A stretch of DNA of 37,333 nucleotides from Candidatus Aenigmatarchaeota archaeon (GCA_030615165.1 JAUWZW010000003.1:1-37333); one strand, 5' to 3'. Counted from the first letter of the stretch, positions 12,664 through 31,987 are shown. The notes: generated by a model from the letters alone, not told the origin. Made by a program: numbers and translations.

Positions 12664-13140
12664 CTACTGAAGTATTCTGAGTCTGGACACCACCAGGAGA
12701 ACCACCCAGATGTCAAGTAACACAATCCAATATTTCCACCAATTGGCCGAAATGTCGGTCTCGGCAGTATCCGCGGCGTATTTATGCTGGATGTACACTT
12801 CTTCAGAGACTGAAAAGACCAAGCTCAATATCCAGTAAACGAGTATGTAAGCTGGCCCCAGGGCAAGCAAGCCGCTCCATGTATGGATCCGGGCTCGGCC
12901 GACGAAATGCATGAACAGTGATGTTAATACAAGAATGACGCAAAACCTGCCAACGAATCCGGCGAACCATATCAACCTGTTCTTGTCCGTCATCACCTTC
13001 AGTTCCATAAGACACCTACTACAATTATCATCGTATCGACATTTCACATCAGTATCGCAGTTCAGCTTTTTCAACAGCGTCGTGCGCCAGTTGAAACATC
13101 CGGCAAGGGAAATTATGTATATTGCATACAGGTTATCCAT
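12664..13140 (-). CDS. small membrane protein, member 2 of the paralog array, with a Cys-rich insert
   Basis: It starts MDNLYAIYIIS behind the conserved RBS. The insert is CDTDVKCRYDDNCSRC. It also has IWFAGFVGRFCVILVL. Confidence 0.5.
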   Translation of the reverse strand: MDNLYAIYIISLAGCFNWRTTLLKKLNCDTDVKCRYDDNCSRCLMELKVMTDKNRLIWFAGFVGRFCVILVLTSLFMHFVGRARIHTWSGLLALGPAYILVYWILSLVFSVSEEVYIQHKYAADTAETDISANWWKYWIVLLDIWVVLLVVSRLRILQ

Positions 13141-13267
13141 TTTGTGCCTCCTTTCATTATGCCGAAAAATGCTAATGCTGAATAGCATATACAGTTAAAC
13201 CAATAATTGAAACTATTATCCAGATTACCAGAATTATGAACCATGTCCGTGCACGAATACGGATTGC

Positions 13268-13717
13268 TTAAAGATGACTAACTGTCCACTGAAAAAATCC
13301 TAACCGGTTAAGAACATATATCACAACTATAATGAACCAGATAATCAGAAGTACACTCCATGAAGCCGCCCATACATTAAAAGCTACTCCCTCGGGTGTT
13401 GACAGCTTTATGTTAATGAGTGAAACAACCACCACGAAAGCCCCACCCCAAATGAGCAGGCTCCACACGCTGGTTATTTTGAGGCCCAAGACGTCAGTGA
13501 TAAGCATAAGCAGGGCGCCTACGATGATGAAACGCAGGATGAAACCAAAGCCCCAGACGAACAGGTTTTTTCTTGCACGTCTTCTTTCCAGTTTGCCGGG
13601 ATTAGGGCCGCATATGTTCAATACGTCCAATGCCTTCGGCAGTGATTTCAGCAGCTTAACGTGCCAGTTGAATCCCGAGACAAGAGAAATAATATATATT
13701 GCATACAGGTTGTCCAT
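13268..13717 (-). CDS. small membrane protein, member 1 of the paralog array
   Basis: MDNLYAIYIISLVSGFNWHVKLLKSLPKALDVLNI... with 4 TM helices. Conserved RBS upstream. Confidence 0.55.
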   Translation of the reverse strand: MDNLYAIYIISLVSGFNWHVKLLKSLPKALDVLNICGPNPGKLERRRARKNLFVWGFGFILRFIIVGALLMLITDVLGLKITSVWSLLIWGGAFVVVVSLINIKLSTPEGVAFNVWAASWSVLLIIWFIIVVIYVLNRLGFFQWTVSHL

Positions 13718-13833: not shown

Positions 13834-14276
13834 CTTATGTCATCAAGACAGCTTTCCAGACCAAAATTTAATCTGTCTGGCAATAGCTGTTAAGGTGTGT
13901 ATCTAGGAGCATGATATCAGCACGAAACGGTTTGAAACTGGCTAGCTACAATGAGGTCAATAACAATAGATTAACAAAAAAACTTTATATAGCTATCCAC
14001 CTTCCTTTTCAAAAAATCAGTAAAGTTAATGTTTCGGTTAATCGCAAAAAACAGAAAACCCGCTCCCGCAAACATAATTCCTATTTATGTTCATTTGTGT
14101 CAGGCAGGTTGGGTTCGGGCAAGTGCTGGATGGCTTGTCCCTGCTGCTTCCATTTTCTGTACTCTTCAGTATTGCGGAAGGAATTGATTTCTGTCGCGTT
14201 CGGGTCTTTTGTGATAGCCATTTCGACCTCACTATGAAGCAGAATTGAAAGGTCATCCCTGTAATAAATTGTGTCA

Positions 14277-14567
14277 TTAAAGCGCTTTGGCATTGACTTC
14301 TATTCTGACCAAATAACCCGGCACTTCAAAGACTATCTCTTTATGAAATGGCACAGAATTCGGGTCTATCAGAAAGGTTTCTCCCCGGCCCCCCAGGGTC
14401 CTTGCACCTTCATACATATGCCATCCCAAAGAGAATTCAATTCTTGCTAGTGCTGGTGCATCTGGATTCTGCTTGAATGTATTATTTTCCGGTGTGAGTA
14501 TAATTATTAATAAAAATACACACATGGAAAATACTAACCAAATTATTATCCTTTTTTTCCTTGACAT
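14277..14567 (-). CDS. small secreted or membrane-anchored protein
   Basis: 96 aa. The N-terminal signal-like helix is MSRKKRIIIWLVFSMCVFLLIIIL. It is tightly linked (3 nt) downstream of the LuxR gene. Confidence 0.4.
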   Translation of the reverse strand: MSRKKRIIIWLVFSMCVFLLIIILTPENNTFKQNPDAPALARIEFSLGWHMYEGARTLGGRGETFLIDPNSVPFHKEIVFEVPGYLVRIEVNAKAL

Positions 14568-14570
14568 GGG

Positions 14571-14900
14571 TTAATCCTCCTTATTAAGAAAATCTGCAAC
14601 TTCCATGAATCTCAGAAGCAGAGAAACTTTATTTGTCACCCGGGTTTTTGCAGAAATATGCTTTATATGTTGTTTTACGGTATTGACGCTTCTGTCCAAC
14701 TTCTTAGCAATATCCTTATTGGTTAACCCCTTGCATACAAGTTTCGCCACCTGCAATTGCCGGGGACTCAGATGAAAATGTTTCTGGAGACTTATCCACT
14801 GTTCATTATCAAAAACCTCAAAATCCGGCAGTTTGTTAGGGTCATCCTGGATATTGTTTTGGCGTGCCATTTTTGACATCACCTCCTTTCTTTCAATCAT
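14571..14900 (-). CDS. LuxR/GerE-type HTH transcription regulator
   Basis: The C-terminal region LSPRQLQVAKLVCKGLTNKDIAKKLDRSVNTVKQHIKHISAKTRVTNKVSLL matches the LuxR-type HTH signature. Confidence 0.7.
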   Translation of the reverse strand: MIERKEVMSKMARQNNIQDDPNKLPDFEVFDNEQWISLQKHFHLSPRQLQVAKLVCKGLTNKDIAKKLDRSVNTVKQHIKHISAKTRVTNKVSLLLRFMEVADFLNKED

Positions 14901-14903
14901 CTC

Positions 14904-15482
14904 CTAATAGATAATCGCTGTTGCTTCTTCAATCTTTTTGATAACTTCAGCCACATCGGCAGAATCGGATATGCAGCCGTCAAAGCCCTTCTGCAGCAGG
15001 GCGGCTGACTCGGAATCGTTCAACTCGCCCGCAAGGGCTATAATCTTGATGGTCTGCAAATCCTCATTGGAACGGATGCTTTTGCATAGGCCTGCTGCAT
15101 CTATGTCTTCAGCCAAGAGGTTGACCAATAGAACATGTGGTGCAAATTTCTGGGCGATTGCACCGGTCTCAAAATCACTATGTGTGGTTTGCACTTCGTA
15201 ATCTGTCTTGGTTCGCAAAGTATCAGCCAGGGCCGAGGCTGCTTTTTCGTTGCTGTTCACTATAAGGACCCGGATATTGCCGATTGGAAGTGTTGGCGCA
15301 GGCATGTTATGCGCTTTCATAAACCGGATCAGCTCTGCTACGGGTATCCTCCTGTCCTTGCTGCCAGGTATCCTGTATCCCTTCATCTGGCCTGTATCAA
15401 ACCACTTTGAGACTGTCCGGGGCGCTACATTGCAGATCCTTGCAACATCGCCTGTTGTCAGTACGTTTTTTCCCTTTGCCAT
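14904..15482 (-). CDS. excisionase/MerR-type HTH domain fused to a degenerate (pseudo-)receiver domain
   Basis: The likely start is MAKGKNVLTTGDVARICNVAPRTVSKWF... at 15482, with GGAGGT 8 nt upstream. The HTH is excisionase-family. A CheY-like fold follows (VLIVNSNEK...VLLVNLLAEDIDAAG...IKIIALAG), but the acidic pocket is altered (NS, N, A). Confidence 0.65.
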   Translation of the reverse strand: MAKGKNVLTTGDVARICNVAPRTVSKWFDTGQMKGYRIPGSKDRRIPVAELIRFMKAHNMPAPTLPIGNIRVLIVNSNEKAASALADTLRTKTDYEVQTTHSDFETGAIAQKFAPHVLLVNLLAEDIDAAGLCKSIRSNEDLQTIKIIALAGELNDSESAALLQKGFDGCISDSADVAEVIKKIEEATAIIY

Positions 15483-15682
15483 TGGTATACCTCCTTTCAA
15501 ACACCAAGCAGTACACAAGGCTGGGTTTCAGGTTTTGTGTTTGTCTCCGGTCAATGCTATTCCGCATAGAATAATAACAAATAATACGGGCGCAATAAAC
15601 ATGGCCAGAAAAAGTATCATCGGGTCTGATGTTTTTTATTTTCCATTTCTTGCCCTTTCGCAGAAATTTACCTAACAAAAAC

Positions 15683-15727
15683 AGCCATGCAAGAAGTCTT
15701 TGCTGACTTTCGTCCCTGCATGGTCAC
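15683..15727. repeat. hairpin-forming element B (CCATGCA...AAGTC tttgcT GACTT...TGCATGG), paralogous to element A
   Basis: It lies about 165 nt upstream of the HTH-REC gene. The sequence covaries with element A and preserves both stems. Confidence 0.5.
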
Positions 15728-15858
15728 GATTTAACTTCAAAGCCAAGCTGCCAGAACTGAATCTTCTATGGTTCAGTTATGACGCGGAAATCGCTGTTGG
15801 CTGTAATGTATGTATCAAGGGAACATGAATACTACTGCTTCATAGTTAATAGAAAATT

Positions 15859-16905: not shown

Positions 16906-17023
16906 CTTGTGAACTTTTTACGGATGCTCAGACTTCGTCTGAGCCAACCCCTTTGCTGCCTTGTTTATTATTTATAAAACTGGATTAATATCATTTTATA
17001 GATTTTGAGCAGGTGCGGAACCT

Positions 17024-17338
17024 GTGCTTATAAATATAACTGTTTTATCTTGGTTTATGGAATATTTTACCCAGTTCTTTGTTGAAGGCGATAAACCTGG
17101 AGAATATATTGGATGGGGAAGGGTACAGTTTAAAGCAATAAGCCGAGGGTATGCAGAAGGAAAACTCCAGAAACTCTTATCTATGGTTCAAGAAAGATTC
17201 CCAGAATTGTTAGTAGGATTAGATAATCATGAGAAATATGAAGGCAAACCAATAAAACTGGGAACTGATGTGTATGAGTCAGAAGACCAGATTACACCTT
17301 TAAGTGAGCCAGACTTGGGAAAAATAGAATTGCCCTAA
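17024..17338 (+). CDS. small hypothetical protein, probably leaderless starting at MEYFTQ (17057)
   Basis: The TATA-like element CTTATAAATATA (17028-17038) lies about 20-25 nt upstream of the ATG at 17057, an archaeal leaderless arrangement. The longer track ORF would start inside the promoter. Confidence 0.4.
   Translation: MLINITVLSWFMEYFTQFFVEGDKPGEYIGWGRVQFKAISRGYAEGKLQKLLSMVQERFPELLVGLDNHEKYEGKPIKLGTDVYESEDQITPLSEPDLGKIELP
17028..17038 (+). promoter_or_regulatory. archaeal TATA box for the 17057 gene; related TTATTTATAAAACT elements at 16966-16980 and 17362-17377
   Basis: These are AT-rich TATA-like boxes 20-30 nt upstream of ATG codons with no intervening SD. The motif TTATTTATAAAACT occurs twice in the divergent Pelota / 17393 promoter region. 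Confidence 0.4.
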
Positions 17339-17392
17339 ACCCTGCGTCAACCCCCTTCTTTTATTTATAAAACTATTGTTAAATACTATTAT

Positions 17393-18529
17393 ATGAGGCA
17401 GCTGAAAGGTGTTGAGGATTTCATATATGTGCTTGCAGTAGCGCTGATTCTGATACTTGTTTTTGCAGCCATATCCGCACTATGGCCTGTAGGGCCGGGC
17501 GGAGGTGTTGTCGGTAATGTTTCCATTGCAGAGTTCTCACTGGGAGGTGTTGGTTATTCAGGGGATTATGAAGCAAGCTCTATTACACTGGGCTCTTTCA
17601 GTGTCGGGGAGACCCAGACAGAGAATCTCAGGACCGCTCCGCAGCTAAGCCTTTCATCAAGCCTGCTCGGTTCGAAAAAAGAGACCTTCAGCATAAATGT
17701 GCTCAGCGCGTACCAGGATTCCCTGAGGGATGTTCTGATAAGCTTTGATGTTTTTGAGACAAACCAGTATGGGGATTTGGTTGTGAAATGGAACGGGAAT
17801 GAGTTCTACAGGGGCAGGGCGAGCCCGAGGGATTACAGCATTGTTATTGACAAGAGCAGCGTGAAGAGCATGAACACGCTGGAGATTTACTGCGACGGGC
17901 CGGGGCTAATATTCTGGGCATCCACTGTATATACGCTCAGGAACTTCAATGTTGACCTGGAATACGGGCCATCAAAGATATTTGCGTTCACCCTCTCCCA
18001 GGGAGAGATAGAGGCATGGGACAGGGGAGAGGTGAGTTTTTACGGCTTTGGAACAGGGGACAAACTGACCCTTGAGGTTAATGATGTTGAGATATATGAG
18101 CAGGCCCCTTCCGGTTCCACAACCATTACGTTCAACTACACGTCTGCCCCGCTCAGGGTCGGGCAGAACCTTCTAACCATTAAAACAGATACAGGTGTCT
18201 TTACCCTGCAGAATGCGGTGTTCAAGATATTCCTTCTCACAAACCTTGTTGCAAAGCAGAGGACATTCGAGCTGGATTCTGACCAGTATGCCAGGCTGGC
18301 AGAGCAGGGTTATGCAGGTGTAATAGAGTTCAAGGTGGATTCCATTGAAAGGTCTGGTGTTCTGGATGTGGAATTGAACAGGAATGACCTGGCAGTGCCC
18401 CTTCCGCGGACAGGATGGAACAACATCACGTTCACTGATGCAGAGGCGAGTATAGGGACCAACACACTCGAATTCTCAGGAAACGGCTACTGGGACATAA
18501 GCGAAGTAAAGGTCAGGCTGGAGAAATAG
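17393..18529 (+). CDS. N-terminally anchored extracellular protein, beta-rich, unknown function
   Basis: 378 aa with one N-terminal TM helix (FIYVLAVALILILVFAAISAL), then a Gly/Thr/Ser-rich beta-like sequence. Confidence 0.55.
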   Translation: MRQLKGVEDFIYVLAVALILILVFAAISALWPVGPGGGVVGNVSIAEFSLGGVGYSGDYEASSITLGSFSVGETQTENLRTAPQLSLSSSLLGSKKETFSINVLSAYQDSLRDVLISFDVFETNQYGDLVVKWNGNEFYRGRASPRDYSIVIDKSSVKSMNTLEIYCDGPGLIFWASTVYTLRNFNVDLEYGPSKIFAFTLSQGEIEAWDRGEVSFYGFGTGDKLTLEVNDVEIYEQAPSGSTTITFNYTSAPLRVGQNLLTIKTDTGVFTLQNAVFKIFLLTNLVAKQRTFELDSDQYARLAEQGYAGVIEFKVDSIERSGVLDVELNRNDLAVPLPRTGWNNITFTDAEASIGTNTLEFSGNGYWDISEVKVRLEK

Positions 18530-18569
18530 GCCCGCTTCTCCTTACACTTGGGATAAAAACGAAACTGGG

Positions 18570-18992
18570 TCAGGAGTTTAGAAGCCTGAGCATTTCCCCT
18601 GGCTTAACAATCTTGATGCCCCTGAATTCTCTAAGATTCAGTATGTGTTTATCATAAGAAACGATATATTCGGCGTTACTGTCAAGTGCAGCATCAAGCA
18701 TGATATTGTCTGCCGGATGCTCTTTTATTACATTAATAACCGATTTTGTATGGATAAGCGTGCTGATTTTCAGAATTGTCCTTATCAAATCCTCTATATT
18801 TTGTTTCCTTTCATCAAGAAAACGCTGGAATTTGGACTCCTTGCTCAACACCGCCGCAATTTCAAGCAGGATATCCCTGGTTATGGTTATTTCAATTCTG
18901 TCCTTTTCCGCTAACTCAATGATTCTGCTGGCTTCCCCTTCCCAGAATATTGCAGAAAGCCAGACATTGCTATCCAGGACCGCTCTTATCAT
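18570..18992 (-). CDS. vapC: PIN-domain ribonuclease toxin (VapC-like)
   Basis: It starts MIRAVLDSNVWLSAIFWEGEAS. The acidic PIN residues are conserved (D at 7, E at 44, D at 100/118). It overlaps the upstream antitoxin by 4 nt. Confidence 0.8.
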   Translation of the reverse strand: MIRAVLDSNVWLSAIFWEGEASRIIELAEKDRIEITITRDILLEIAAVLSKESKFQRFLDERKQNIEDLIRTILKISTLIHTKSVINVIKEHPADNIMLDAALDSNAEYIVSYDKHILNLREFRGIKIVKPGEMLRLLNS

Positions 18993-19261
18993 TTACCAGA
19001 CCTTCTAACCTCTTCTATAAGCACGTCCAACTCTTCCTTTTTGAAACCGGACATTTTTGCTGCCTTTCTAAAGGGCTTCACAGCCTCTCTCCAGGGTTTT
19101 ATCCTTGGCATTTCGATCTTCTTCAGCAGAATCATGTCGTCCTGTGATGTTACTGCAAACGGCGTTCCCTCCTTTAGATGGAGATCCTGCCTTATGTCCT
19201 GGGGTATTACAATCTGGCCCTTTGAGGACAGTTTTGTGAATTCTACCGTCATATTTATCAC
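18989..19261 (-). CDS. vapB: AbrB/SpoVT (MazE-like) swapped-hairpin antitoxin (VapB-like)
   Basis: MINMTVEFTKLSSKGQIVIPQDIRQDLHLKEGTPFAV is a classic SpoVT/AbrB N-terminus. 90 aa. Confidence 0.75.
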   Translation of the reverse strand: MINMTVEFTKLSSKGQIVIPQDIRQDLHLKEGTPFAVTSQDDMILLKKIEMPRIKPWREAVKPFRKAAKMSGFKKEELDVLIEEVRRSGK

Positions 19262-19311
19262 CTGTAAGAATGTAAGATTTGCAGATATTTAAAGCTTTGC
19301 TTTACCTTGAA

Positions 19312-19365
19312 ACGGCACCGGCTACTGGGAAATCAGCGAGGTCAGGGTCAGGCTGGAGAAGTAAG
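19312..19365 (+). pseudogene. remnant 3' gene fragment encoding NGTGYWEISEVRVRLEK*, a diverged copy of the C-terminus of 17393..18529 (NGYWDISEVKVRLEK*)
   Basis: It shows about 85% nucleotide identity over about 50 nt to 18481-18531. An in-frame TGA lies immediately upstream, so only the tail survives. The VapBC module lies between the two copies. Confidence 0.5.
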
Positions 19366-19453
19366 CAGGGTTTTGATAGTCAGTAATACTTAAAAAGCTT
19401 TCCATCAATTATTTATGAGTATAATTCCCACATTTCCCATTCAGGTGAGTTTA

Positions 19454-20377
19454 ATGGAAGTCAGAATACAAAAACCATCGGTTGCATTCACAATAAAGGA
19501 ATTCGAACGTGGTGTTAAACTAAGGTTCGGAAAAAGCAAAGGCATTATTGGACCAGGTCTACATCTTGCAATACCTAGAATCGATGAAGTAAGAATAGTT
19601 GACATAAGGCCGCGGCAGTATGAGGCTTCTTTTGATGTTTTGAGCCAAGACAATTATCCGCTGGCCACGACGGTTGATATAAGGTATAAAATATCAAATG
19701 CTGAGGATGCCGTCGTAAAGGCACCTGAGAATTTTGAAGGTCAGATAGATTTTCTCTTAAAGTCTGAGAGTGGCAAAGAAGCATGTAAGAATATGACAAT
19801 GGACAGTATTCTTAAAAACAGGGATGAACTTGGCAGAAATGTACAAGCTTTTCTGGACGAACATGTAGGTGAATGGGGAATTGATATAGAAACAGTCCAA
19901 GTTAAAGAAGTGGTCCCGCCTTCTGAAGTCCCTGAATTACAAACAGAACTGTACGATGCAAGCATGAAAAGGATAATTGAGCCTGTACGGGCTGGCACTG
20001 AAGCTGAGGTTTATAGAACAAAGGCAGGCGCAAAGCTTGAAATGATGAAACAATATCTCGGGATAATAACTGATGTTGCCGGAGAGCTTGCGAAACAGTA
20101 CGGAGCAAAGGAAGCCAGAGATATCATGTATATTCTTTTCGGCAAGACCTTGGGTTATGAACATCCTGTTACACAGAAAATAAGAACCAAAATGGGAGCA
20201 GAGGGGATGGGCGAAGGGGCAGCAAGTGCTGCAGAAAGCATTGGTGCAGATCCCAAGTATACCTATCTTATGACAACTTTGCAGAACATGAAAGGTATTG
20301 GTATTTTTGATATAAGGTCTTTTGATGACCTTGCTGATTTGGACAAACAATTAAATCAAAAATTATACCCAAAATAA
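19454..20377 (+). CDS. SPFH/band-7 (stomatin/prohibitin-like) domain protein, no TM anchor apparent
   Basis: FERGVKLRFGKSKGIIGPGLHLAIPRIDEVRIVDIRPRQYEASFDVLSQDN...TVDIRYKISNAEDAV fits the SPFH core. The likely start is MEVRIQ, with AGGTGA 6 nt upstream. The track ORF starts at 19415. Confidence 0.7.
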   Translation: MEVRIQKPSVAFTIKEFERGVKLRFGKSKGIIGPGLHLAIPRIDEVRIVDIRPRQYEASFDVLSQDNYPLATTVDIRYKISNAEDAVVKAPENFEGQIDFLLKSESGKEACKNMTMDSILKNRDELGRNVQAFLDEHVGEWGIDIETVQVKEVVPPSEVPELQTELYDASMKRIIEPVRAGTEAEVYRTKAGAKLEMMKQYLGIITDVAGELAKQYGAKEARDIMYILFGKTLGYEHPVTQKIRTKMGAEGMGEGAASAAESIGADPKYTYLMTTLQNMKGIGIFDIRSFDDLADLDKQLNQKLYPK

Positions 20378-20386
20378 GATGATACT

Positions 20387-21157
20387 ATGAACCCAATAGA
20401 CCCTAATGAAATTCTAGGCAGCATGGATTTTTCTGATTTGGATAATTTAGATGAAGTTTCAGATGGCGGAGTCATAATGATGCCTGAAGGTGTAAAAGTG
20501 GCTGAGCCGATTGTGACAAGAGAGGCTGTATTGAAAAAAGTAAAAAGCCAGACAGTTTTGAGAACTAATCATCTTCTTGGTATGCGTTCATGGAGCTATA
20601 ATGAAAGGGGTGGCTATTTAGCGACTCACTTCATAAAGGAAAACGAGAAAAGTTACTGTCTTCCAGTTCCTTCTGGATACGAATATCTTGAACCCATCCT
20701 AGATTATCACCCCTATTCTGTTCGCCATTTTCGAGGGATGGTGCTTATAAGGGATTTACATAATGGTGATCCTGGAAGTGCAAACATTGATAGTAATCCA
20801 GAGCTGAATGGGTTTTCCGAAATGCTTAGTAGAAGAGGGCAATTCGGCGATTTCCTAAAGGGGCGTGGTGATTATGATCAAGGGCATAATCAACATCCAG
20901 TGGCGTGTGCAATCGATATTCTAGACCAACTTGGAAACTATACGAATAGGATTATAAAAAAAGGTAAAACAATTATACGAAAACCAATGGAAAATCTAAG
21001 TCATGACATATGGTACTTCCCTTTATGGGAAGTTCCTATAAAAATATTACCACCTAAAGAAAAAAAATATAACTGGGGAGTAGGTAAACCAGGCCTTGGT
21101 GCTTTCTATTTTGATGGTGTTTTTGGAGTAATGTTTAAGGCACTAAAGAGATATTAA
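20387..21157 (+). CDS. hypothetical protein, paralog A of an unrecognised family
   Basis: 256 aa. Shared with paralog B: an acidic N-terminus LD.LDEV.DGGVIMMPEGVKVA, then EPILDYHPYSV, NPELNGFS, IIRKP, DIWYFPLWEVP, FYFDGVFG. It is 9 nt downstream of the SPFH gene. Confidence 0.6.
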   Translation: MNPIDPNEILGSMDFSDLDNLDEVSDGGVIMMPEGVKVAEPIVTREAVLKKVKSQTVLRTNHLLGMRSWSYNERGGYLATHFIKENEKSYCLPVPSGYEYLEPILDYHPYSVRHFRGMVLIRDLHNGDPGSANIDSNPELNGFSEMLSRRGQFGDFLKGRGDYDQGHNQHPVACAIDILDQLGNYTNRIIKKGKTIIRKPMENLSHDIWYFPLWEVPIKILPPKEKKYNWGVGKPGLGAFYFDGVFGVMFKALKRY

Positions 21158-21178
21158 ATCTTTGTAAGTGGTGACTAT

Positions 21179-22243
21179 ATGAGACATGATGATATTTTAG
21201 GCGGATTGAACATGGAAAGTTTGGATGATTTAGGTGAAGGTGAATACATAGTGATGCCTGAGGGGGTTAAGGTAGCTCCTTATAAGGTCACCGCGGAAGA
21301 AGCAAGGGCTCTTGCACAAAAAGCTGCTGAATCATACAAAGATTCTGATGTATATTTTCATGTTGATCCGGCTGGTAGTGGTTGGGGAGAAGACTTTTTT
21401 GAAGATGGCCCAAGAATGTCCAAAAGATATGAAAATTTGATAAAGACACTCAAGGATAAGATGCCCGCCTTTTTGGAGATTATTGAATCCAAATACAGAA
21501 ACGAGGGACCGTATACTTTCACTGCTGGTTATCTTGGGATAAAACATGTTGATTTCGAGGCTGGTGAGCCAATTCTCGATTATCGCCCGTTATCTGTTTT
21601 TTTAGAGTCGAATCTTCTTCATGTGGAAGATTTGTATACAGGATATCGATATTATTGCAGGGCGACACTGCATCCTGAATTAAATGGTTACTCTAGCATA
21701 CAACCATCAGTTTCTGGGGATGATGAAAATTCTATTCCTTTTTCTATAAGTATGATAATGAATCATGGAAAACCGCTAAGAAAGATAGAAAAATCAGAAA
21801 AAGTTATAATAAGAGAACCCAGAAGAAAGCCTACACGGGGACCAAAAGGTGAAATTTGGTACTTCCCTCTATGGGAAGTGCCAATGGTATCGCACAGAGA
21901 ATTTTTGACTGAGCGGGGGACATACTTCTATCTAAAACGTGGTATTCTTTCCAATAAGTGCACATCGCACGAACACAAGTGGAGAATCCACGTACCTTTC
22001 ATTACCCGAGGTGCGGTATTTTTTGATGGGTTTTCAGGAAAGAAAATATCAAGTGTGTTAGCAGATTCCTTTTTCAATGCTGAAAATCCTCAAGATAATC
22101 AATTTAAATGCTATGCGATTTTGCTTTCGGATAAGAAAGATTTAATAAAAGTAGGATATGCGTATTTGGATTCCTGGCTTAGAAAATGTAGTTTAACAGA
22201 GAAAGAAATAATGAGTATACCAGAACGTATTGAATTTGGTTAA
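21179..22243 (+). CDS. hypothetical protein, paralog B of the same family (longer, C-terminal extension)
   Basis: 354 aa with LDDLGEGEYIVMPEGVKVA, EPILDYRPLSV, HPELNGYS, IIREP, EIWYFPLWEVP, VFFDGFSG. Confidence 0.6.
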   Translation: MRHDDILGGLNMESLDDLGEGEYIVMPEGVKVAPYKVTAEEARALAQKAAESYKDSDVYFHVDPAGSGWGEDFFEDGPRMSKRYENLIKTLKDKMPAFLEIIESKYRNEGPYTFTAGYLGIKHVDFEAGEPILDYRPLSVFLESNLLHVEDLYTGYRYYCRATLHPELNGYSSIQPSVSGDDENSIPFSISMIMNHGKPLRKIEKSEKVIIREPRRKPTRGPKGEIWYFPLWEVPMVSHREFLTERGTYFYLKRGILSNKCTSHEHKWRIHVPFITRGAVFFDGFSGKKISSVLADSFFNAENPQDNQFKCYAILLSDKKDLIKVGYAYLDSWLRKCSLTEKEIMSIPERIEFG

Positions 22244-23177
22244 TCTAATATTAAGTTCACATCGCTGGGGTTCTGATATTTATTCTGCCCAAGCTAATTA
22301 TTTAACAGGTGCTTTAGTGGCAAAAGACAGAATCCTTGAGAACAAGAACTGCCCCAGATGCTGGAACGGCATTCTTTATTCTACGAATATTGTGAGCAAA
22401 AGGAAGCTTGTCTACTACCAGTGTGCATACTGCGGCAGGATGATAACAAGGGGTGTGTTCAGGAAATTGATGGAGAGGATGGAGAAGATAGGAGCAATCG
22501 TGACATCTCATGAAAAGGCTAAGCTGCACAGGAAAAGGATTAGAAAAGCAAGAAAGGAGAAAAAGCCAGGATTCATCGTTGGTGTTGTAAGGGATGTGAA
22601 AAACAAAAAATCCCTTGGAGGGGTTTATGTTTACGTAAGGGGAATAGGCATTGAGGCATTCACCAATTCCTACGGGCAGTATGCATTAAAACCCATTCCC
22701 CCTTCAGAGAATATCACAGTGGAAACATCCAAGCCCGGATACAGGAGGAAGGGAAGGATTCTGAAGAGGGGGATAAAGAGGGGCGAGGTCAGGGAAATAT
22801 ATTTCGGCATAAGGACGTTAAGGGTCAGCAAGACACCCCCTCCGGAGTTCCCCGAACTCAGACCCATATGGGCAAGCCCTGAGGCAAAGAAGGCGCCCCG
22901 CCCGTCAGGCATCCATGGCTTTATCAGGGACAGCAAAGGCAATCCGCTGCAGGGTGCTATAATAACCATCTTTGCCGGGAGAAAGGAATACATAGTCCAG
23001 ACCGATGCAACTGGTCATTACGAGCTGCTCAATGCCCTGCCACCGGGATATTACCATCTCAAGGCAACAGCAGACGGGTTCACATATGACAGGAAAACAG
23101 TCAGGGTGGATTTCATGTTCCTCTCTGCACAGGACTTCAAACTGTTCGTCATGCCGAGGAGAAGCGCGGGCGGCTGA
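22230..23177 (+). CDS. C4 zinc-ribbon protein with two carboxypeptidase-regulatory-like (Cna-B-type) beta-sandwich domains
   Basis: The zinc ribbon is CPRCWNGILYS...YYQCAYCG. The beta domains are GVVRDVKNKKSLGGVYVYVRGIGIEAFTNSYGQYAL and GFIRDSKGNPLQGAIITIFAG...TDATGHYELLNALPPGYYHLKATADGFTYDRKTV. The start is uncertain, because the track ORF overlaps the upstream gene by 14 nt. Confidence 0.55.
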   Translation: MNLVNLILSSHRWGSDIYSAQANYLTGALVAKDRILENKNCPRCWNGILYSTNIVSKRKLVYYQCAYCGRMITRGVFRKLMERMEKIGAIVTSHEKAKLHRKRIRKARKEKKPGFIVGVVRDVKNKKSLGGVYVYVRGIGIEAFTNSYGQYALKPIPPSENITVETSKPGYRRKGRILKRGIKRGEVREIYFGIRTLRVSKTPPPEFPELRPIWASPEAKKAPRPSGIHGFIRDSKGNPLQGAIITIFAGRKEYIVQTDATGHYELLNALPPGYYHLKATADGFTYDRKTVRVDFMFLSAQDFKLFVMPRRSAGG

Positions 23178-23218
23178 TTTTTAAAGAATTTATACATATC
23201 TGGATAATTAATTATTAG

Positions 23219-26200
23219 GTGAAGGATTTGGTCAAGTGTAAGGATGTCGGGGGTCCAGATTGGTGCGATGAGGATGCGGAATATGTAAGGACATATAGGG
23301 AGAGGGGAGGTACTTACGTTGAGCTGAGATGTCCATCCGGTCATTTAAGTGTAATTCCTGTTTCTGAATACAGAGACAAAGTCAGGGCAGAAGAAGCAGC
23401 AAGAAGGATAACCAATGCGGATATTGCGCACTTAAGAATAGAGATAGAATCCATGGTTTTCCAGAGGTTGCCTGAGCGGCAGATGATAAATGAGGTTGTT
23501 CTTTACCTTGAGTCAACAGGAAGGTATGCAGCTTTGAAGAGGGAGGAACTTGAAAAAACAGCACGCAAGCTGTTGGATTTGGTTAGAAAGAAAATAGAAA
23601 AAGAAAGGCTGGGAGCTGTAAGTAAATACATATGTCCTGATTGCAAGAAGGTTTACCTGAATGAAAAGCCCGGGGCGGATGGCAACCTTCTTTATTACTT
23701 CTGCACAGAGTGCAAGAAAAAATTCTCTCCACGTGATATAAAGAGAAGAAAGGTTTATGGGAAGCCTGGTTGGTTGAAGAGGAGAAAGGCATACAGAGAG
23801 AAGAAAAAGGAGTTGAAAGGCACTGCAATCAAAAAGGAGTTGGAGGAGCTTGAAACCTTGGAAGAGAGAAGGCGAGCAGGTTTATTAACTGCTGATGAGC
23901 ATGAAAGGTTGTTAGAATTAAGGGGGACTGCAGCAGAAAAAAGGGAGGAATTCAAGGGTACACTCTTTGGTGCCAAGAAAGAATATAAAACTGGTGTGAG
24001 TGAGCTAAAGGAAAAGGCCAAAGCAGAGAAATGGACCAGGGTAAAATACAAGGAAGAAAAGAGAAAGCTCAAGGAGAAGTACATTAGAAGCAAAAGGGAA
24101 TATAAAGAGAAAGTGGGGAAAGAGAAAGAGAAGAGAAAGGCGCACATAGGAAAGAGGGTAACCGGTTTTATTGAAGATAAATGGGGCAAGGACGTGATGA
24201 AGGCATTTATCGTGATTCTCTTTGCTGCCCTGGGCTTTGCTATCTCAGGTGCTTTTGGAAGCATTTTATTCCTGTTCGGGTTCCTTTCATTGGCTCTTTA
24301 CTACATTTTCCCGAGCCCTGATGAAGAAACCCCGCCCCGGGAGCTGGCGAGACAACTCAAGGAAAACCCCCTGACATGGAGGATGGTGGGGTCAAGGGCC
24401 TTCCTGAGGAATCCCCACACGGTCTGGGGGTTCTTGAAAACAATCTTTAAACTGTCAACATTCATACTGTTCATTTTCGGTGTCTGGTACAGCCCGATGG
24501 TTCCGTTCAAGAATATAGTTTTGATAATACTGTGCTTTGGGGCATACTTCTCGCTCAAGATGACCTATAACACTCATATGCCGCACCAGTTCATAGAATC
24601 CGTGATAAGGTTTGGTCTGCTTGGGGCGTTCTTCATACCGTGGGTTATATTCTACGGGATTTTCCAGTCAGGTCTTCTTGCCCTGCTTGCAATGGCATTC
24701 TTCATGATTCCGCCCATAGCAGAGGACAAGCAGAATACTGAAACCTTTGCAATGTATGAAATGTTTGATAAATTCATATTTTTTGGTTTCATGCTCGTTG
24801 CGCTCATTGCATCCGGGGTTCTGCCTCTTCCATGGTTTGGTGAAGTTGGATGGAAACTTACAGGAACCCTCCAGTGGACATTCCTCTACTTCTGGGTTGT
24901 TTCCTTTGTTGCAGGATTCTTCTCTCCTGCACAGACAAGACCTGCAATGGGTTTCATAATGCTAGGCGCTGCTACCATAATCTACGGCATAGGGCCTGGG
25001 GCGCAGGAGTTCGGGACAGCTTTGCTTGGTCCCTGGTATCCTGTTATACAGAATCTTTTCAGCTCAATTGCAAAGCCGTTTGCTGAAGTATTCGGCCAGT
25101 TTGCAAACACATTCGGCAGTGCCCTGATGCTGCTTGTAAATCCTGTTGGGTATGCGCAGTCTATAATGAACGGAACGTATGCAAGGGATACCACTACAGG
25201 TTTGCAGGGCGCGTACGGCATTGAGATAGAGAGGTTTGAGGTAATGCCCATATACACAGAGAGCCCTTATGTTGTAAGTGTCATGGTTAAGAACAAGGGG
25301 GCGTTTGAGGCAAGGAATGTAATAGTTGCACTTGTCCCGAGCGTTAATGTACCCAGGGAGGAAAAGAGCTGGGTTTGGGGTGTCAAGGAGGCTGTGCTTA
25401 TTATACCGAAAGCTGCTGTGGCAGTTGGAGGTTGGAATCCTCTTAGTATTGAAGTGCACATGCCGTTTCTGAGGCCTAACATAACCATGACAAAGGAAGG
25501 GCTGGGATTTGTTGAAGAGCCTGATACGGACAGGGGCATAACACAGAAATGCATAGATGACAGGCGGTGTGTATTTGCCATAGGCAACATGACAAAGCTG
25601 CAGACAAGCCAGGCAAACTTCTACTCTGATGGTATAATGTGCCCTGCAGTGGTTAATTATGGCTTGATGACAAAGGAAAAGGCGAAAGTGCTCCCGTTCA
25701 TAGGCATGATACAGTATGACTACAACATAAGCTCGAACCTTGAGGTTGAGGCAATGAGCAAGGAGGAATGGGAAAGGCAGGTGGAGGAAATGGAGCTGCA
25801 GCCAAAGTTCAAGAAGCTTACAACCTTCACAAATGCGCCTGTCATGCTCAATCTGGACACACTGGAGCAGCCCATACTGGAGGGCTCACCATTCCATATA
25901 GCCCTGAACATTGTGTCTGCGCACAAGAAGGGGAGGGTAGTGGGCAATGCTACTGTAAGGTTGGAGATACCAACCAACTTCACGAAGGGGAAGGGAGAAG
26001 AAAACCTGCCTCCCTGCGTGCCGGATAAGATCAAACCCAAAATTATAAAGCAAGATGATACAACAACACTTCTCGAATGGAAAGGTCTCACCGAGCCTTA
26101 TGCCATATTCTGCAGCTTCCCTCCTGTGAAGGTTCCTGAAGGTCCTACAATAACATACATGGTAAGGGCTGATGCTAGTTACACATTCAGCAAGTGGGAC

Positions 26201-26617
26201 ACACTTGATACAAGGATGCAGTTCGGGGGGACAGCATGCTGCAAGAAATCCGAGGACTGTCCGATTCCCGGTCAGATATGCGACACATCAATAAATAAAT
26301 GCGGGGCTGGGGAAATTGATATTAGCGAAAGATTGTCTGAGCTTGAGGCGCGTATGAATGAACTCCAGAATGAAGTGGACCAGATAACAGAGGAGTTTGC
26401 TGATAAGCTTATAGTGGACATAAATGCATATGACCAGCTTCTGGATGAGATGGGCATCCTTAAACAGCAATACTCAGGTGATGCTGAGGTCATATCGGCT
26501 ATAGAGAATGTTGAAACCAGTGTTAATAATGCAATAAAAGTGGCATGTGAAAAATGCAGGAGATGGGGTGTGGATTGTCCATCAGACATCTGCAGTTCTG
26601 TGGGTGTTGATTTATAA
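23219..26617 (+). CDS. giant (1132 aa) polytopic membrane protein: N-terminal zinc ribbons + K/E-rich coiled coil + ~8 TM + large beta-rich domain + Cys-rich segment + C-terminal coiled coil
   Basis: The N-terminus has CKDVGG..WCDED...RCPSGH and YICPDCKK...YYFCTECKK zinc ribbons. A highly charged KEKxK block (aa ~190-300) follows. The hydrophobic core spans aa ~330-620. The long C-terminal soluble region has CARDB-like strands (YVVSVMVKNKGAFEARNVIVALVPSV). The coiled coil is EIDISERLSELEARMNELQNEVDQITEEF. Confidence 0.75.
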   Translation: MKDLVKCKDVGGPDWCDEDAEYVRTYRERGGTYVELRCPSGHLSVIPVSEYRDKVRAEEAARRITNADIAHLRIEIESMVFQRLPERQMINEVVLYLESTGRYAALKREELEKTARKLLDLVRKKIEKERLGAVSKYICPDCKKVYLNEKPGADGNLLYYFCTECKKKFSPRDIKRRKVYGKPGWLKRRKAYREKKKELKGTAIKKELEELETLEERRRAGLLTADEHERLLELRGTAAEKREEFKGTLFGAKKEYKTGVSELKEKAKAEKWTRVKYKEEKRKLKEKYIRSKREYKEKVGKEKEKRKAHIGKRVTGFIEDKWGKDVMKAFIVILFAALGFAISGAFGSILFLFGFLSLALYYIFPSPDEETPPRELARQLKENPLTWRMVGSRAFLRNPHTVWGFLKTIFKLSTFILFIFGVWYSPMVPFKNIVLIILCFGAYFSLKMTYNTHMPHQFIESVIRFGLLGAFFIPWVIFYGIFQSGLLALLAMAFFMIPPIAEDKQNTETFAMYEMFDKFIFFGFMLVALIASGVLPLPWFGEVGWKLTGTLQWTFLYFWVVSFVAGFFSPAQTRPAMGFIMLGAATIIYGIGPGAQEFGTALLGPWYPVIQNLFSSIAKPFAEVFGQFANTFGSALMLLVNPVGYAQSIMNGTYARDTTTGLQGAYGIEIERFEVMPIYTESPYVVSVMVKNKGAFEARNVIVALVPSVNVPREEKSWVWGVKEAVLIIPKAAVAVGGWNPLSIEVHMPFLRPNITMTKEGLGFVEEPDTDRGITQKCIDDRRCVFAIGNMTKLQTSQANFYSDGIMCPAVVNYGLMTKEKAKVLPFIGMIQYDYNISSNLEVEAMSKEEWERQVEEMELQPKFKKLTTFTNAPVMLNLDTLEQPILEGSPFHIALNIVSAHKKGRVVGNATVRLEIPTNFTKGKGEENLPPCVPDKIKPKIIKQDDTTTLLEWKGLTEPYAIFCSFPPVKVPEGPTITYMVRADASYTFSKWDTLDTRMQFGGTACCKKSEDCPIPGQICDTSINKCGAGEIDISERLSELEARMNELQNEVDQITEEFADKLIVDINAYDQLLDEMGILKQQYSGDAEVISAIENVETSVNNAIKVACEKCRRWGVDCPSDICSSVGVDL

Positions 26618-29208: not shown

Positions 29209-30114
29209 TTAGTTGTTCACATCAGGGGACAGTATTACTACTTCAGGCTCGGCACTTTCAGGCTCCGGCTCTGCAGCAGCTGGCTCCTCAGTGCTGGCAG
29301 GCGGCTCGGTGCCGAAGTAAGCGTTGATTGCTTCAGTAGCATTCCTTGGCCCAACCTCGGCTTCCCAGTCAACTATCTCACCCCTGCCTGTTCCAACCGC
29401 AGTTTCACGGGTAACCCTCAGATCAGCTTCAAGCTCCAGATAACGGTTCTGAAGGGCGTTCATTGCCCTTGTGACACCGCTGGCAGAACCAAGGGGGTCG
29501 CCCTTGATAGCCTTAACAAGTTCTGAAACCTGAACCTCTACCTGTTTGGCAGCGATCTTGGCTTCCCATTCCTGGATTTTGCCCGTAAGTTCATTAACCT
29601 TGTTGGTAGCAATAACCAGCTGACTCTTTGCCTCTTCTATCTCTCTGCTAAGCCCCTCAAGAAGGATTTCCTTCTCTTTTATTTCTGTATCCAGGGCTTT
29701 GCAGCGGTCGATCCGGAGGAGGGCATCCTGGTTAACCTGCTCCCAGGTATAGGATTTGTTGTTGACTGTGATGGAATTGCCAGGCTGGCTGTTGGCAAGA
29801 ACCGTCTTGACTTTCTTCAGTATGGCCTCATTGCCTGCCTTGCGCTCTTTGAGCTCTTCAACATCTTCTGCGATAAGATTTGCCTTGATTTCACCCCTGC
29901 TGATATTCACATGATAGTTGCGAATTTTTCCTCGGCATTTCTCAGCTTCATCTTTGGCTATATCCACAAGGGTGTTAAGAGAGGCCTTATCGTCAAGATA
30001 ATCCGCAACACGTTTGCCCCTTGCATTGATGTGAGCACCCAGGTTGGGGACAATTGTCCAACCTAATACAGCAACTATGGCGACAGCCACTACAATAATC
30101 CAAAAAGTTTTCAT
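29209..30114 (-). CDS. N-terminally anchored coiled-coil protein, PspA/IM30/ESCRT-III-like (tentative), with acidic/Pro tail ending ...VVILSPDVNN
   Basis: The probable start is MKTFW (GAGGTG 6 nt upstream). The track ORF start at 30123 appears to be a GTG. The TM is WIIVVAVAIVAVLGWTIV. Long amphipathic helices (LIAEDVEELKERKAGNEAILKK...; ...GSASGVTRAMNALQNRYLELEADLRVTRE) resemble the PspA helix pattern. It is about 65% identical to 31037..31858. Confidence 0.6.
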   Translation of the reverse strand: MKTFWIIVVAVAIVAVLGWTIVPNLGAHINARGKRVADYLDDKASLNTLVDIAKDEAEKCRGKIRNYHVNISRGEIKANLIAEDVEELKERKAGNEAILKKVKTVLANSQPGNSITVNNKSYTWEQVNQDALLRIDRCKALDTEIKEKEILLEGLSREIEEAKSQLVIATNKVNELTGKIQEWEAKIAAKQVEVQVSELVKAIKGDPLGSASGVTRAMNALQNRYLELEADLRVTRETAVGTGRGEIVDWEAEVGPRNATEAINAYFGTEPPASTEEPAAAEPEPESAEPEVVILSPDVNN

Positions 30115-30120
30115 AATACA

Positions 30121-30245
30121 CACCTCTTTTCTTCACAAAAAGGGTTAACATTTTTGCAAGCTTCCTCAATAATCTGTTCTGTCTGTTTGGGGGATTTTCT
30201 GAATAACCTCCTTTCTGCCAGGGACCCATGCCAGGCAGACAGAAA
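30121..30245. repeat. promoter/5'UTR block copy 1, duplicated at 31863..31987 with near identity
   Basis: About 115 nt are almost identical: ...TTCACAAAAAGGGTTAACATTTTTGCAAGCTTCCTCAATAATCTGTTCTGTCTGTTTGGGGGATTTTCTGAATAACCTCCTTTCT..GGGACCCATGCCAGGCAGACAGAAA. It contains an inverted repeat TCTGCC...GGCAGA. Confidence 0.7.
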
Positions 30246-31036: not shown

Positions 31037-31858
31037 TCATTCGCTTTGCCCTGAGAAGTAGGCGTCAATTGCTTCAGCAGCTTTCCTTGGTGCGATATCG
31101 CCTTCCCAGTCAACGATGTTATCCCTGCCTGTTCCGACCGCGGTTTCACGGGCAACCCTTACATTGGCTTCAAGCTCCAGATAGCGGTCCTGAAGGGCGT
31201 TCATTGCCCTTGTAATCCCGCTGGTAGAACCAAGGGGGTCGCCCTTGATAGCCTTAACAAGTTCTGAAATCTCGACCTCTACCTCTTTGACAGCGATCTT
31301 GATTTCCCATTCCTGGATTTTTCCCGTCAGCTGGTTGGTTTTATCAATAGCAATAACCATCTGCCTCTCCGCATCTTCTATCTCTCTGTTGAGCCCATCA
31401 AGAAGGGTTTCCTTCTCTTTTATTTCGGTATCCAGGGTTTTGCAGCGGTCGATCCGGAGGAGGGCATCCTGGTTAACCTGCTCCCAGGTATAGGATTTGT
31501 TGTTGACTGTGATGGTGTCGCCAGGCTGGTTTTCCTTAAGAGCCTTCCCTGCTTTCTTGAGTATGGCCTCGTTGCCTGCCTTGCGCTCCTTGAGCTCTTC
31601 AACATCTTCTGCGATAAGATTTGCCTTGATTCTGCACCTGCTGATGTTCATCTGGTACTCAGATATCCTTTCAAGGCTTTTCTGGACTTCCTTTTTAGCA
31701 ATGTCAATGAGCTCCTGCAGAGACGCCTTCTTGTCAAGGTACTCCGCAGCACGCTCACCCTTTGCACTGATGTGAGCGCCCAGGTTGGGGATGACTGCAG
31801 AGGCAATGGCACCAAGTATGCAGACAGCCACCACGATAATTAGTATTTTTCTAAACAT
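31037..31858 (-). CDS. PspA/IM30/ESCRT-III-like (tentative) membrane-anchored coiled-coil protein, tandem paralog of 29209..30114
   Basis: The probable start is MFRKILIIVVAV (GAGGTG 4 nt upstream). Many stretches of about 75 nt are identical to the paralog at nucleotide level (e.g. 31441-31516 matches 29700-29775). The C-terminus differs (...AYFSGQSE). Confidence 0.6.
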   Translation of the reverse strand: MFRKILIIVVAVCILGAIASAVIPNLGAHISAKGERAAEYLDKKASLQELIDIAKKEVQKSLERISEYQMNISRCRIKANLIAEDVEELKERKAGNEAILKKAGKALKENQPGDTITVNNKSYTWEQVNQDALLRIDRCKTLDTEIKEKETLLDGLNREIEDAERQMVIAIDKTNQLTGKIQEWEIKIAVKEVEVEISELVKAIKGDPLGSTSGITRAMNALQDRYLELEANVRVARETAVGTGRDNIVDWEGDIAPRKAAEAIDAYFSGQSE

Positions 31859-31862
31859 AATA

Positions 31863-31987
31863 CACCTCTGTTTCTTCACAAAAAGGTTAACATTTTTGCA
31901 AGCTTCCTCAATAATCTGTTCTGTCTGTTTGGGGGATTTTCTGAATAACCTCCTTTCTACCCGGGACCCATGCCAGGCAGACAGAAA
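31863..31987. repeat. promoter/5'UTR block copy 2
   Basis: See 30121..30245. Confidence 0.7.

What the first reader, a model, noticed from the sequence alone, without database searches (positions are those of the whole stretch)
19415..26617. Tight 5-gene operon: SPFH/band-7, two unrecognised paralogs, zinc-ribbon beta-sandwich protein, 1132-aa polytopic giant
Five plus-strand genes are packed with gaps of 9, 21, -14 and 41 nt, so they are almost certainly co-transcribed. They are a TM-less SPFH protein, two paralogous proteins of a family I cannot place, a cytoplasmic C4 zinc-ribbon protein with two carboxypeptidase-regulatory-like domains, and a giant membrane protein whose N-terminus also carries two zinc ribbons. 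SPFH proteins scaffold membrane microdomains and often work with a dedicated partner. Here the partners are unknown proteins, which makes this a candidate undescribed membrane-associated system. It sits immediately downstream of an inserted VapBC module.
Basis: partly seen in the sequence, partly recalled or inferred. Interest (0 to 1): 0.72.

Follow-up and report, generated by a model that had tools for sequence, protein, structure and literature searches.

The report
Mobile SPFH–partner cassette inside resident operon
The apparent five-gene operon is a mosaic: a horizontally acquired cassette (a membrane-scaffold-type SPFH protein plus two copies of an undescribed partner protein) and a toxin–antitoxin pair have landed inside an unrelated archaeal surface-protein operon, and the SPFH–partner pairing recurs in other archaea as a new two-gene module of unknown role.

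Summary
The five ORFs, their domains and the paralogy are real, but they are not one system. In the closest relative (L002) g378 is followed directly by the zinc-ribbon/CarboxypepD_reg gene and then the giant; window ~18529-22277 is absent with a base-exact junction. A second relative (L001) lacks it too. SPFH, parA and parB have GC3 of 0.29-0.33 against 0.46-0.62 for resident genes. An orphan copy of the g378 3' end (19314-19366) shows two separate insertions at one hotspot: VapBC, then SPFH-parA-parB. The -14 overlap is a longest-ORF artefact.

Best reading: a mobile two-component SPFH-partner module in which the new family replaces NfeD. Its biological role is unknown.

The parts
17393..18529 (+). 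g378: resident first gene of the native operon. It has one N-terminal TM helix and no known domain.
   Evidence: 97% identical to L002 and 86.5% to L001 at protein level, and syntenic in both. TM at residues 10-28. A TATA-like TTTATAAA lies 29 nt upstream.
18479..18531 (+). Direct repeat D1, copy 1: the functional 3' end of g378. Its last ~30 nt are a surrogate allele of L001 type.
   Evidence: 53-nt repeat, 83% identical to copy 2. Allele switch at sites 18499-18529 while the rest of g378 agrees with L002 at 85 sites.
18570..18992 (-). VapC-like PIN toxin, part of the inserted toxin-antitoxin cassette.
   Evidence: PIN_3 E=6e-16; TIGR00305 68.6 bits against a cut-off of 29.15. Absent from L001 and L002.
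18989..19261 (-). VapB-like AbrB/MazE-fold antitoxin. It overlaps the toxin gene by 4 nt.
   Evidence: MazE_antitoxin E=2.7e-8; AbrB domain 44.1 bits against 28.3.
19314..19366 (+). Direct repeat D1, copy 2: the displaced original 3' end of g378, stop codon included. Now an orphan fragment.
   Evidence: 1 mismatch in 46 nt to the L002 g378 end, against 6 mismatches for copy 1.
19364..22277 (+). SPFH-parA-parB cassette, inserted exactly between the original g378 stop codon and the TTTATTCT that follows it in L002.
   Evidence: L002 536|537 corresponds to window 18528|22278. GC 0.387 against 0.46 for the rest of the window; GC3 0.29-0.33 against 0.46-0.62.
19409..19416 (+). TATA-like box (TTATTTAT) inside the cassette, 45 nt upstream of the SPFH start. 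Candidate cassette promoter (inferred).
   Evidence: Pattern scan. The same octamer occurs in the g378 promoter region.
19454..20377 (+). TM-less SPFH/Band_7 protein (307 aa) with a subfamily-specific conserved C-terminal extension.
   Evidence: Band_7 99.8 bits. Nearest solved relatives are stomatin (8.6e-15) and HflK (4e-11). Orthologs next to family genes are 68%, 51% and 44% identical over the full length. No TM.
20387..21157 (+). parA: the short member (256 aa) of the new SPFH-associated family, carrying the ...WYFPLWEVP... motif.
   Evidence: Paralog of parB. Matches the family profile. No known domain.
21179..22243 (+). parB: 354-aa member of the same family.
22317..23177 (+). Resident zinc-ribbon protein with two CarboxypepD_reg domains (286 aa). 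Not part of the SPFH module.
   Evidence: 92.5% identical to the L002 gene that directly follows g378 there. Pfam. GC3 0.585.
23228..26617 (+). Resident giant polytopic membrane protein. Hypervariable cytoplasmic N-terminus, conserved TM core, beta-rich ectodomain, C-terminal coiled coil. An alternative GTG start lies at 23219.
   Evidence: Homologs at 71-78% identity in L001, L002 and P0006 without an SPFH cassette. N-terminal variability. Layout from TM scan and a low-confidence model.

Best explanation
The region is a mosaic produced by at least two insertions into one hotspot, the spacer right after the stop codon of the resident gene g378. The native arrangement, preserved in relative L002, is g378, then the zinc-ribbon/CarboxypepD_reg protein, then the giant membrane protein.

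One event brought a VapBC toxin-antitoxin pair together with a surrogate 3' end for g378. This displaced the original 3' end by 835 bp. Another event placed a low-GC, three-gene cassette (SPFH, parA, parB) exactly after the original stop codon.

The cassette is the functional unit of interest. It is a two-component module made of a TM-less SPFH protein with a distinctive conserved C-terminal extension and a dedicated partner from an undescribed protein family, here duplicated in tandem.

Inferred mechanism: the SPFH protein oligomerises as other SPFH proteins do, into rings or cages. The partner binds it as adaptor, anchor or client, filling the role NfeD plays in classical SPFH operons. The partner is non-enzymatic, has a PepSY-like alpha/beta core and a long beta-hairpin, and carries C-terminal TM helices in roughly 40% of family members.

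Shown: the insertion anatomy, the foreign composition and the recurrent SPFH-partner linkage. Inferred: physical interaction, oligomerisation and any physiological role. The role may be membrane or stress surveillance, or inter-genomic conflict.
For: Insertion:
- The L002 junction is base-exact, and L001 has g377 followed directly by the giant.
- tblastn finds no SPFH, parA, parB, PIN or AbrB in L001 or L002.
- GC3 is 0.334, 0.292 and 0.304 for the cassette genes, against 0.57, 0.585 and 0.505 for the flanking genes.
- There is a 53-nt direct repeat of the g378 end, with an allele switch in the functional copy.

Module:
- The profile search finds 25 further representatives among 1.84 billion, of which 23 are credible.
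- An SPFH gene is adjacent on the same strand, with gaps of -4 to 91 nt, in the window, L003, L006/7, L011, L014, L015 and the P0012 contig.
- For the window and four of those loci (L003, L006/7, L011, L015) the SPFH proteins share a TM-less subfamily with a conserved C-terminal extension. The L014 SPFH is a shorter TM-less relative matching only the SPFH domain. The P0012 contig has only a precomputed Band_7 annotation and no DNA.
- No other neighbour is conserved.
- An independent tandem duplication of the partner occurs in L009.

Partner is non-enzymatic and novel:
- Nearly invariant positions are P, Y, L, R and G only.
- No Pfam family is hit by more than one of the 25 members.
- There is no PDB sequence or fold match.
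Against: - No direct evidence of physical interaction or co-transcription.
- In most SPFH-linked pairs neither protein has a predicted TM helix. The 'membrane anchor' version of the mechanism therefore fits only some members, and the complex may be soluble or peripheral.
- One well-flanked lineage (Woesearchaeota, L004/L012) pairs the family with Ser/Thr kinases and a different 284-aa protein instead of an SPFH.
- Only 10 of about 25 family loci could be inspected.
- The reverse test, whether this SPFH subfamily ever occurs without the partner, could not be run.
- No integrase or transposase explains the mobility.
Confidence: 0.68

Rival explanations
1. The SPFH-partner cassette is an anti-virus or abortive-infection type conflict module. 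The SPFH assembly holds or senses at the membrane, and the long beta-hairpin partner acts as effector or sensor.
For: - It is accessory and horizontally acquired, and it sits in a hypervariable hotspot beside VapBC.
- Other loci have MNT-HEPN, HEPN, a weak DUF3800_VII hit or a MazE-domain gene nearby.
- The partner evolves much faster than the SPFH: 68% SPFH identity against ~23% partner identity between the window and L011.
- The partner has duplicated independently at least twice.
- The family's distribution is rare and patchy.
Against: - No PADLOC hit for SPFH, parA or parB.
- No recognisable effector domain.
- No relatives on viral, phage or plasmid sequences.
- No literature link between SPFH and defence in the searched library.
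- Toxin-antitoxin neighbours are common in any variable region.
Confidence: 0.2
2. All five genes form one functional membrane system, and relatives have simply lost part of it.
For: - Same strand and short spacers.
- No TATA-like box before the zinc-ribbon gene, so read-through from the cassette is plausible.
Against: - L002 and L001 keep g378 and the giant (and, in L002, the zinc-ribbon gene) without SPFH or the paralogs, with a precise junction.
- The cassette's GC3 is about 0.25 below that of its neighbours.
- The orphan g378 end marks the original gene boundary.
- None of the other family loci with DNA in hand contains a giant or zinc-ribbon homolog.
Confidence: 0.04
3. The cassette is a remnant of an archaeal virus or provirus, with the SPFH and beta-rich proteins serving as virion or assembly components.
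For: - Foreign composition and an insertion flanked by a duplicated gene end.
- A PHROG family matches the SPFH domain at E=1.7e-13.
Against: - No integrase, capsid, portal or terminase genes.
- No family or subfamily relatives in IMG/VR, INPHARED or the BFVD fold library.
- The PHROG hit is a generic SPFH-domain match.
Confidence: 0.04

Closest known systems
SPFH-NfeD operons (P. horikoshii stomatin PH1511 with PH1510/PH0471; B. subtilis YqfA-YqeZ and YuaG-YuaF; E. coli QmcA-YbbJ and YqiK-YqiJ)
   Same: An SPFH gene is tightly coupled on the same strand to one dedicated partner gene. The pairing is conserved across distant lineages and has a patchy, laterally transferred distribution (PMC2636767, PMC4208085).
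   Different: - The partner is not NfeD. It has no NfeD Pfam hit, no N-terminal TM triplet and no OB-fold, and it is 256-660 aa of alpha/beta fold.
- The SPFH lacks the N-terminal membrane anchor and has a distinct conserved C-terminal extension.
HflK/HflC-FtsH and stomatin ring or cage assemblies (solved structures 7vhp, 9wmj, 8z5g)
   Same: The SPFH domain is homologous (stomatin 8.6e-15, HflK 4e-11, QmcA 1.2e-8) and is followed by a helical region, so ring or cage oligomerisation is a reasonable inference.
   Different: - Scores fall far below the HflK and HflC equivalog cut-offs (67 against 159).
- There is no TM segment, no FtsH or other protease gene in the cassette, and only a single SPFH type rather than a K/C pair.
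TM-less prokaryotic SPFH subfamilies SPFH8 and SPFH9 (Hinderhofer et al. 2009, PMC2636767)
   Same: They have no predicted TM and so are presumed soluble. They are small subfamilies with scattered distribution and no documented function.
   Different: Membership could not be tested because no reference sequences were available here. The paper reports no conserved partner like this family for SPFH8 or SPFH9.
PepSY-fold proteins (B. subtilis YpmB 2gu3, YpeB, FoxB)
   Different: - No Pfam PepSY hit in any of the 25 members.
- The test for an internal duplication was not significant (E=0.11).
- The overall architecture, with strands of 25-29 residues, has no counterpart.
Integrative elements that target the 3' end of a gene and carry a replacement 3' end (as with tRNA-gene-targeting elements)
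   Same: The VapBC insert is bracketed by a 53-nt direct repeat of the g378 3' end, and the functional copy carries a foreign allele.
   Different: No integrase or recombinase is present. The insert is only ~0.8 kb. The SPFH cassette itself has no flanking target duplication.

Membership tests
SPFH / Band_7 superfamily (PF01145) | SPFH domain scoring above Pfam's gathering threshold | tested here: met
   99.8 bits against a cut-off of 23.6, residues 26-201. Stomatin and HflK are the best PDB matches.
SPFH / Band_7 superfamily (PF01145) | N-terminal TM segment or hairpin membrane anchor, present in 10 of the 12 prokaryotic subfamilies | tested here: not met
   Maximum hydropathy of 0.9 over 19-residue windows. 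All six partner-linked SPFH proteins lack a TM.
SPFH / Band_7 superfamily (PF01145) | Homo-oligomeric ring or cage formed through the C-terminal coiled coil | not testable with these tools
   The C-terminal extension is conserved.
HflK / HflC (TIGR01933, TIGR01932) | Equivalog score above the NCBIfam cut-off | tested here: not met
   67.1 against 159.4 for HflK and 28.7 against 134.4 for HflC.
SPFH-NfeD operon | Adjacent NfeD partner with N-terminal TM helices and a C-terminal OB-fold | tested here: not met
   No NfeD hit in parA, parB or any of the 25 family members. The fold is alpha/beta and not an OB barrel. No N-terminal TM.
PepSY domain | Sequence match to the Pfam PepSY model | tested here: not met
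   No member matches at E<=1.
PepSY domain | Structural similarity to a PepSY fold | tested here: inconclusive
VapBC type II toxin-antitoxin | PIN toxin and AbrB/MazE-fold antitoxin as an overlapping gene pair | tested here: met
   TIGR00305 68.6 bits against 29.15; AbrB 44.1 bits against 28.3; 4-nt overlap at 18989-18992.
Known anti-phage defence systems (PADLOC-DB v2) | Any component matching a PADLOC model | tested here: not met
   No hit for SPFH or parA. parB has only a chance-level E=0.05 hit. The giant has only a weak coiled-coil match to LmuB.
Site-specific integrative element | Direct repeats of the target flanking the insert | tested here: met
   D1, 53 nt at 83% identity, flanks VapBC. 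No such repeat flanks the SPFH cassette.
Site-specific integrative element | Integrase or recombinase gene within the element | tested here: not met
   Only PIN, AbrB, SPFH, parA and parB lie in 18529-22277.

The most novel reading that the evidence does not exclude
The TM-less SPFH subfamily and the WYFPLWEVP family together form a previously unrecognised, horizontally mobile archaeal system. It would be a soluble or peripheral SPFH cage whose fast-evolving beta-hairpin partner senses or attacks membranes or invaders. That would make it a new class of SPFH-based stress or defence module with a new protein fold.
Probability: 0.2. Interest if true: 0.75.

Novelty: new variant of a known kind. 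Interest (0 to 1): 0.5.

Why it matters
SPFH proteins are universal membrane organisers, and their prokaryotic functions are mostly understood through their operon partners, such as NfeD and FtsH.

This work defines a second kind of dedicated partner. It is a protein family absent from Pfam, NCBIfam and the PDB, and it is linked to a TM-less SPFH subfamily in several archaeal lineages. That gives a concrete two-protein pair to test for how anchor-less SPFH proteins assemble and what they do.

It also gives a worked example of a small-cassette insertion hotspot in an uncultured archaeon. That example warns against reading tight spacing as evidence of functional coupling.

Tried and rejected
- **Word-index homolog searches:** a search with parB found only itself and parA. 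A search with the 25-member alignment saturated its candidate cap and added nothing.
- **Collection scans with the full alignment:** A 7-member sub-alignment found only one Woesearchaeota contig in the genome and metagenome collections and nothing viral.
- **Fold search:** AFDB50 was unavailable.
- **L004's 284-aa upstream protein as a cryptic SPFH:** rejected, hhalign probability 0.1%.
- **Internal duplication of the family domain (two PepSY-like units):** the expected motifs align, but E=0.11, which is not significant.
- **Third conserved component (large downstream proteins, DnaJ-like genes):** no cross-locus similarity.
- **Giant protein model:** pLDDT 46, not used for fold search.
- **Other negative searches:** plasmid and phage tblastn, Rfam, tRNA scan and a dispersed-repeat search.
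- **Provenance:** look-up of the window's own contig failed, so the host is placed only as an uncultured archaeon, on the Pelota equivalog.


Full report
**Observation**

The five plus-strand ORFs exist as described.
- Pfam confirms a Band_7/SPFH domain (99.8 bits) in the first protein and two CarboxypepD_reg domains in the fourth. It also confirms a PIN/AbrB pair just upstream on the minus strand.
- The second and third proteins are true paralogs, 27% identical with E=3e-17.
- Neither paralog nor the giant matches anything in Pfam, NCBIfam, PADLOC or PHROGs.
- Hydropathy shows no TM segment in SPFH, parA, parB or the zinc-ribbon protein. The giant has a block of TM helices from about residue 329 and one clean C4 ribbon.

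Start-codon contexts and ortholog alignments correct three details:
- SPFH starts at ATG 19454.
- The zinc-ribbon gene starts at GTG 22317. The '-14 overlap' is therefore an artefact, and the real gap to parB is 73 nt.
- The giant probably starts at TTG 23228.

**The region is a mosaic**

The giant has three homologs at 71-78% identity. Their contigs are syntenic with the window.
- In L001 (a 297-kb contig) the order is Pelota, g377, giant.
- In L002 the order is g378, zinc-ribbon/CarboxypepD_reg gene, giant.
- tblastn with all window proteins finds no SPFH, parA, parB, PIN or AbrB in either locus. The flanking genes are 86-97% identical.

At the DNA level, L002 1-536 aligns with window 17993-18528, and L002 537-1479 aligns with window 22278-23221. 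Window ~18529-22277 is therefore absent with a base-exact junction, immediately after the g378 stop codon.

Composition agrees with a foreign origin. GC3 is 0.334, 0.292 and 0.304 for SPFH, parA and parB. It is 0.57 for g378, 0.585 for the zinc-ribbon gene, 0.505 for the giant, and 0.46-0.62 for the other resident genes measured.

**Two events at one hotspot**

A 53-nt direct repeat of the g378 3' end, stop codon included, occurs at 18479-18531 and again at 19314-19366. It brackets VapBC.
- The downstream, orphan copy differs from L002's g378 end at 1 of 46 positions. The functional copy differs at 6.
- Along the 3' half of g378 the window agrees with L002 at 85 variable sites. In the last ~30 nt it switches to the L001-type allele at five sites, including the stop codon.

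VapBC therefore arrived with a surrogate 3' end for g378. The SPFH-parA-parB cassette (19364-22277) sits exactly between the original stop codon and the TTTATTCT that follows it in L002.

The hotspot extends further.
- L001 lacks the zinc-ribbon gene.
- The first ~316 residues of the giant, including its ribbon, are hypervariable among the three relatives. The TM core is nearly identical.

**The SPFH-partner module**

The paralog family is very rare. A word-indexed search of 5.8 billion proteins finds only the two window copies. An exhaustive profile search of 1.84 billion representatives finds 25 more, of which two are repeat artefacts.

Shared motifs are MPxGVKVA, EPILDYRPYSV, DLxTG, PELDGFSS, E(I/V)WYFPLWEVP and GAxFxDGxxG. 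Nearly invariant residues are P, Y, L, R and G only, which argues against an enzyme. About 40% of members end in TM helices.

Ten family loci were inspected.
- **SPFH adjacent (7 loci):** an SPFH gene lies directly adjacent on the same strand, with gaps of -4 to 91 nt and in either order. These are the window, L003, L006/L007, L011, L014, L015 and the P0012 contig. In L015, Pfam missed the SPFH, but a subfamily profile detects it at E=3e-22, mainly through the C-terminal extension.
- **SPFH absent (1 locus):** the Woesearchaeota L004/L005/L012 locus has Ser/Thr kinases and a non-SPFH 284-aa protein instead.
- **Cannot be judged (2 loci):** L008 and L009/L010 sit on short contigs or at contig edges.

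Properties of the linked SPFH proteins:
- Those in L011, L003 and L006 are 68%, 51% and 44% identical to the window's over the full length.
- With L015's, they share a conserved C-terminal extension.
- L014's shorter 263-aa SPFH matches only the SPFH domain.
- All six whose sequences were in hand lack a TM.

No other neighbour is conserved across loci. The partner has duplicated independently in L009. It also diverges far faster than the SPFH: 68% against ~23% identity between the window and L011.

**Structure**

An AlphaFold2 model of parB built on the 25-member alignment is confident (pLDDT 79.5, pTM 0.77). It shows an N-terminal strand and helix, a long helix, a beta-sheet domain and very long beta-hairpins with strands of 25-29 residues.
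- Foldseek against the PDB and against viral models gives nothing significant.
- Profile searches of the PDB and per-member Pfam scans are negative.

The giant's model was too poor to use, with pLDDT 46.

**Interpretation**

Family homologs co-localise with SPFH and never with giant or zinc-ribbon homologs.

The best-supported reading is a mobile two-component SPFH-partner module in which the new family takes the place of NfeD. In the standard survey, NfeD is the conserved partner of SPFH1, 2 and 5. That survey lists only SPFH8 and SPFH9 as TM-less and stresses lateral transfer of small subfamilies (PMC2636767).

Oligomerisation and physical interaction are inferred from family knowledge and gene linkage. 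They have not been shown.

A defence or conflict role is a live alternative.
- For it: a hotspot location, toxin-antitoxin neighbours in several loci, a fast-evolving partner and a weak DUF3800 neighbour.
- Against it: no defence-database or literature support and no viral or plasmid relatives.

Because no TATA-like box precedes the zinc-ribbon gene, while one lies in the cassette upstream of SPFH, the resident downstream genes may now be transcribed by read-through from the cassette. That is an accidental operon, not a functional one.

**Verdict**

The novel element is the SPFH-partner pair, which is a new variant of the known SPFH-plus-operon-partner theme built on an undescribed protein family. 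The five-gene 'system' is not a unit.

Noticed in passing
window 16906-17392 (g104 at 17024-17338; repeats at 16968-17000 and 17361-17393): A 104-aa orphan gene with GC3 of 0.286 is absent from L001, where Pelota and g377 are 62 nt apart. It is flanked by a 33-nt direct repeat containing the TATA-like TTTATAAA of the g378 promoter. This looks like another small cassette insertion that duplicated its target.
   Followed up: partly
window 23219-24170 (giant residues 1-316): The giant's cytoplasmic N-terminus (zinc ribbon plus a K/E-rich helical region) is hypervariable among three relatives whose TM core is nearly identical. L001 lacks the ribbon entirely.
   Followed up: partly
window 13999-15783 and 32772-33845: A gene encoding HTH_17 plus a response-regulator receiver (14904-15518) and a HEAT-repeat gene have no counterpart at the syntenic positions in L001. 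This shows frequent small indels between these related genomes.
   Followed up: no
window 29209-30123 and 31037-31879; 11446-13717: There is a tandem paralog pair of coiled-coil membrane proteins (83% nucleotide identity over 938 nt). There is also a run of four small paralogous genes. Both are conserved in L001.
   Followed up: no
window 33907-35663: A Vps4/CdvC-like AAA ATPase (Vps4_C domain; CdvC model at 128.6 bits, below its cut-off) is translationally coupled to a 224-aa single-TM protein. An M50B peptidase lies nearby. The arrangement is syntenic in L001.
   Followed up: no
L006 2477-2719; L014 6797-7240: DnaJ-type elements sit beside the SPFH-partner module in two loci. In L006 an 80-aa CXXCXGXG zinc-finger protein lies upstream. 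In L014 a J-domain protein lies directly downstream of the SPFH gene. This may be coincidence or a proteostasis link.
   Followed up: no
L009 3-1337 and 1483-2946 (same in L010): Two tandem copies of the partner family (41% identical), both with C-terminal TM helices. The gene caller missed the upstream copy. This duplication is independent of the window's parA/parB.
   Followed up: partly
L004 1-5926 (Woesearchaeota QMQS01000077 = L012): Here the family member follows two repeated pairs of a Ser/Thr kinase with a Beta_helix domain and a 284-286-aa unknown protein. This is an alternative, non-SPFH context for the family.
   Followed up: partly
window 21179 versus 21212: The database call for parB (343 aa) starts 11 codons too late. 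Conservation with parA and a GGTGA Shine-Dalgarno support ATG 21179.
   Followed up: yes
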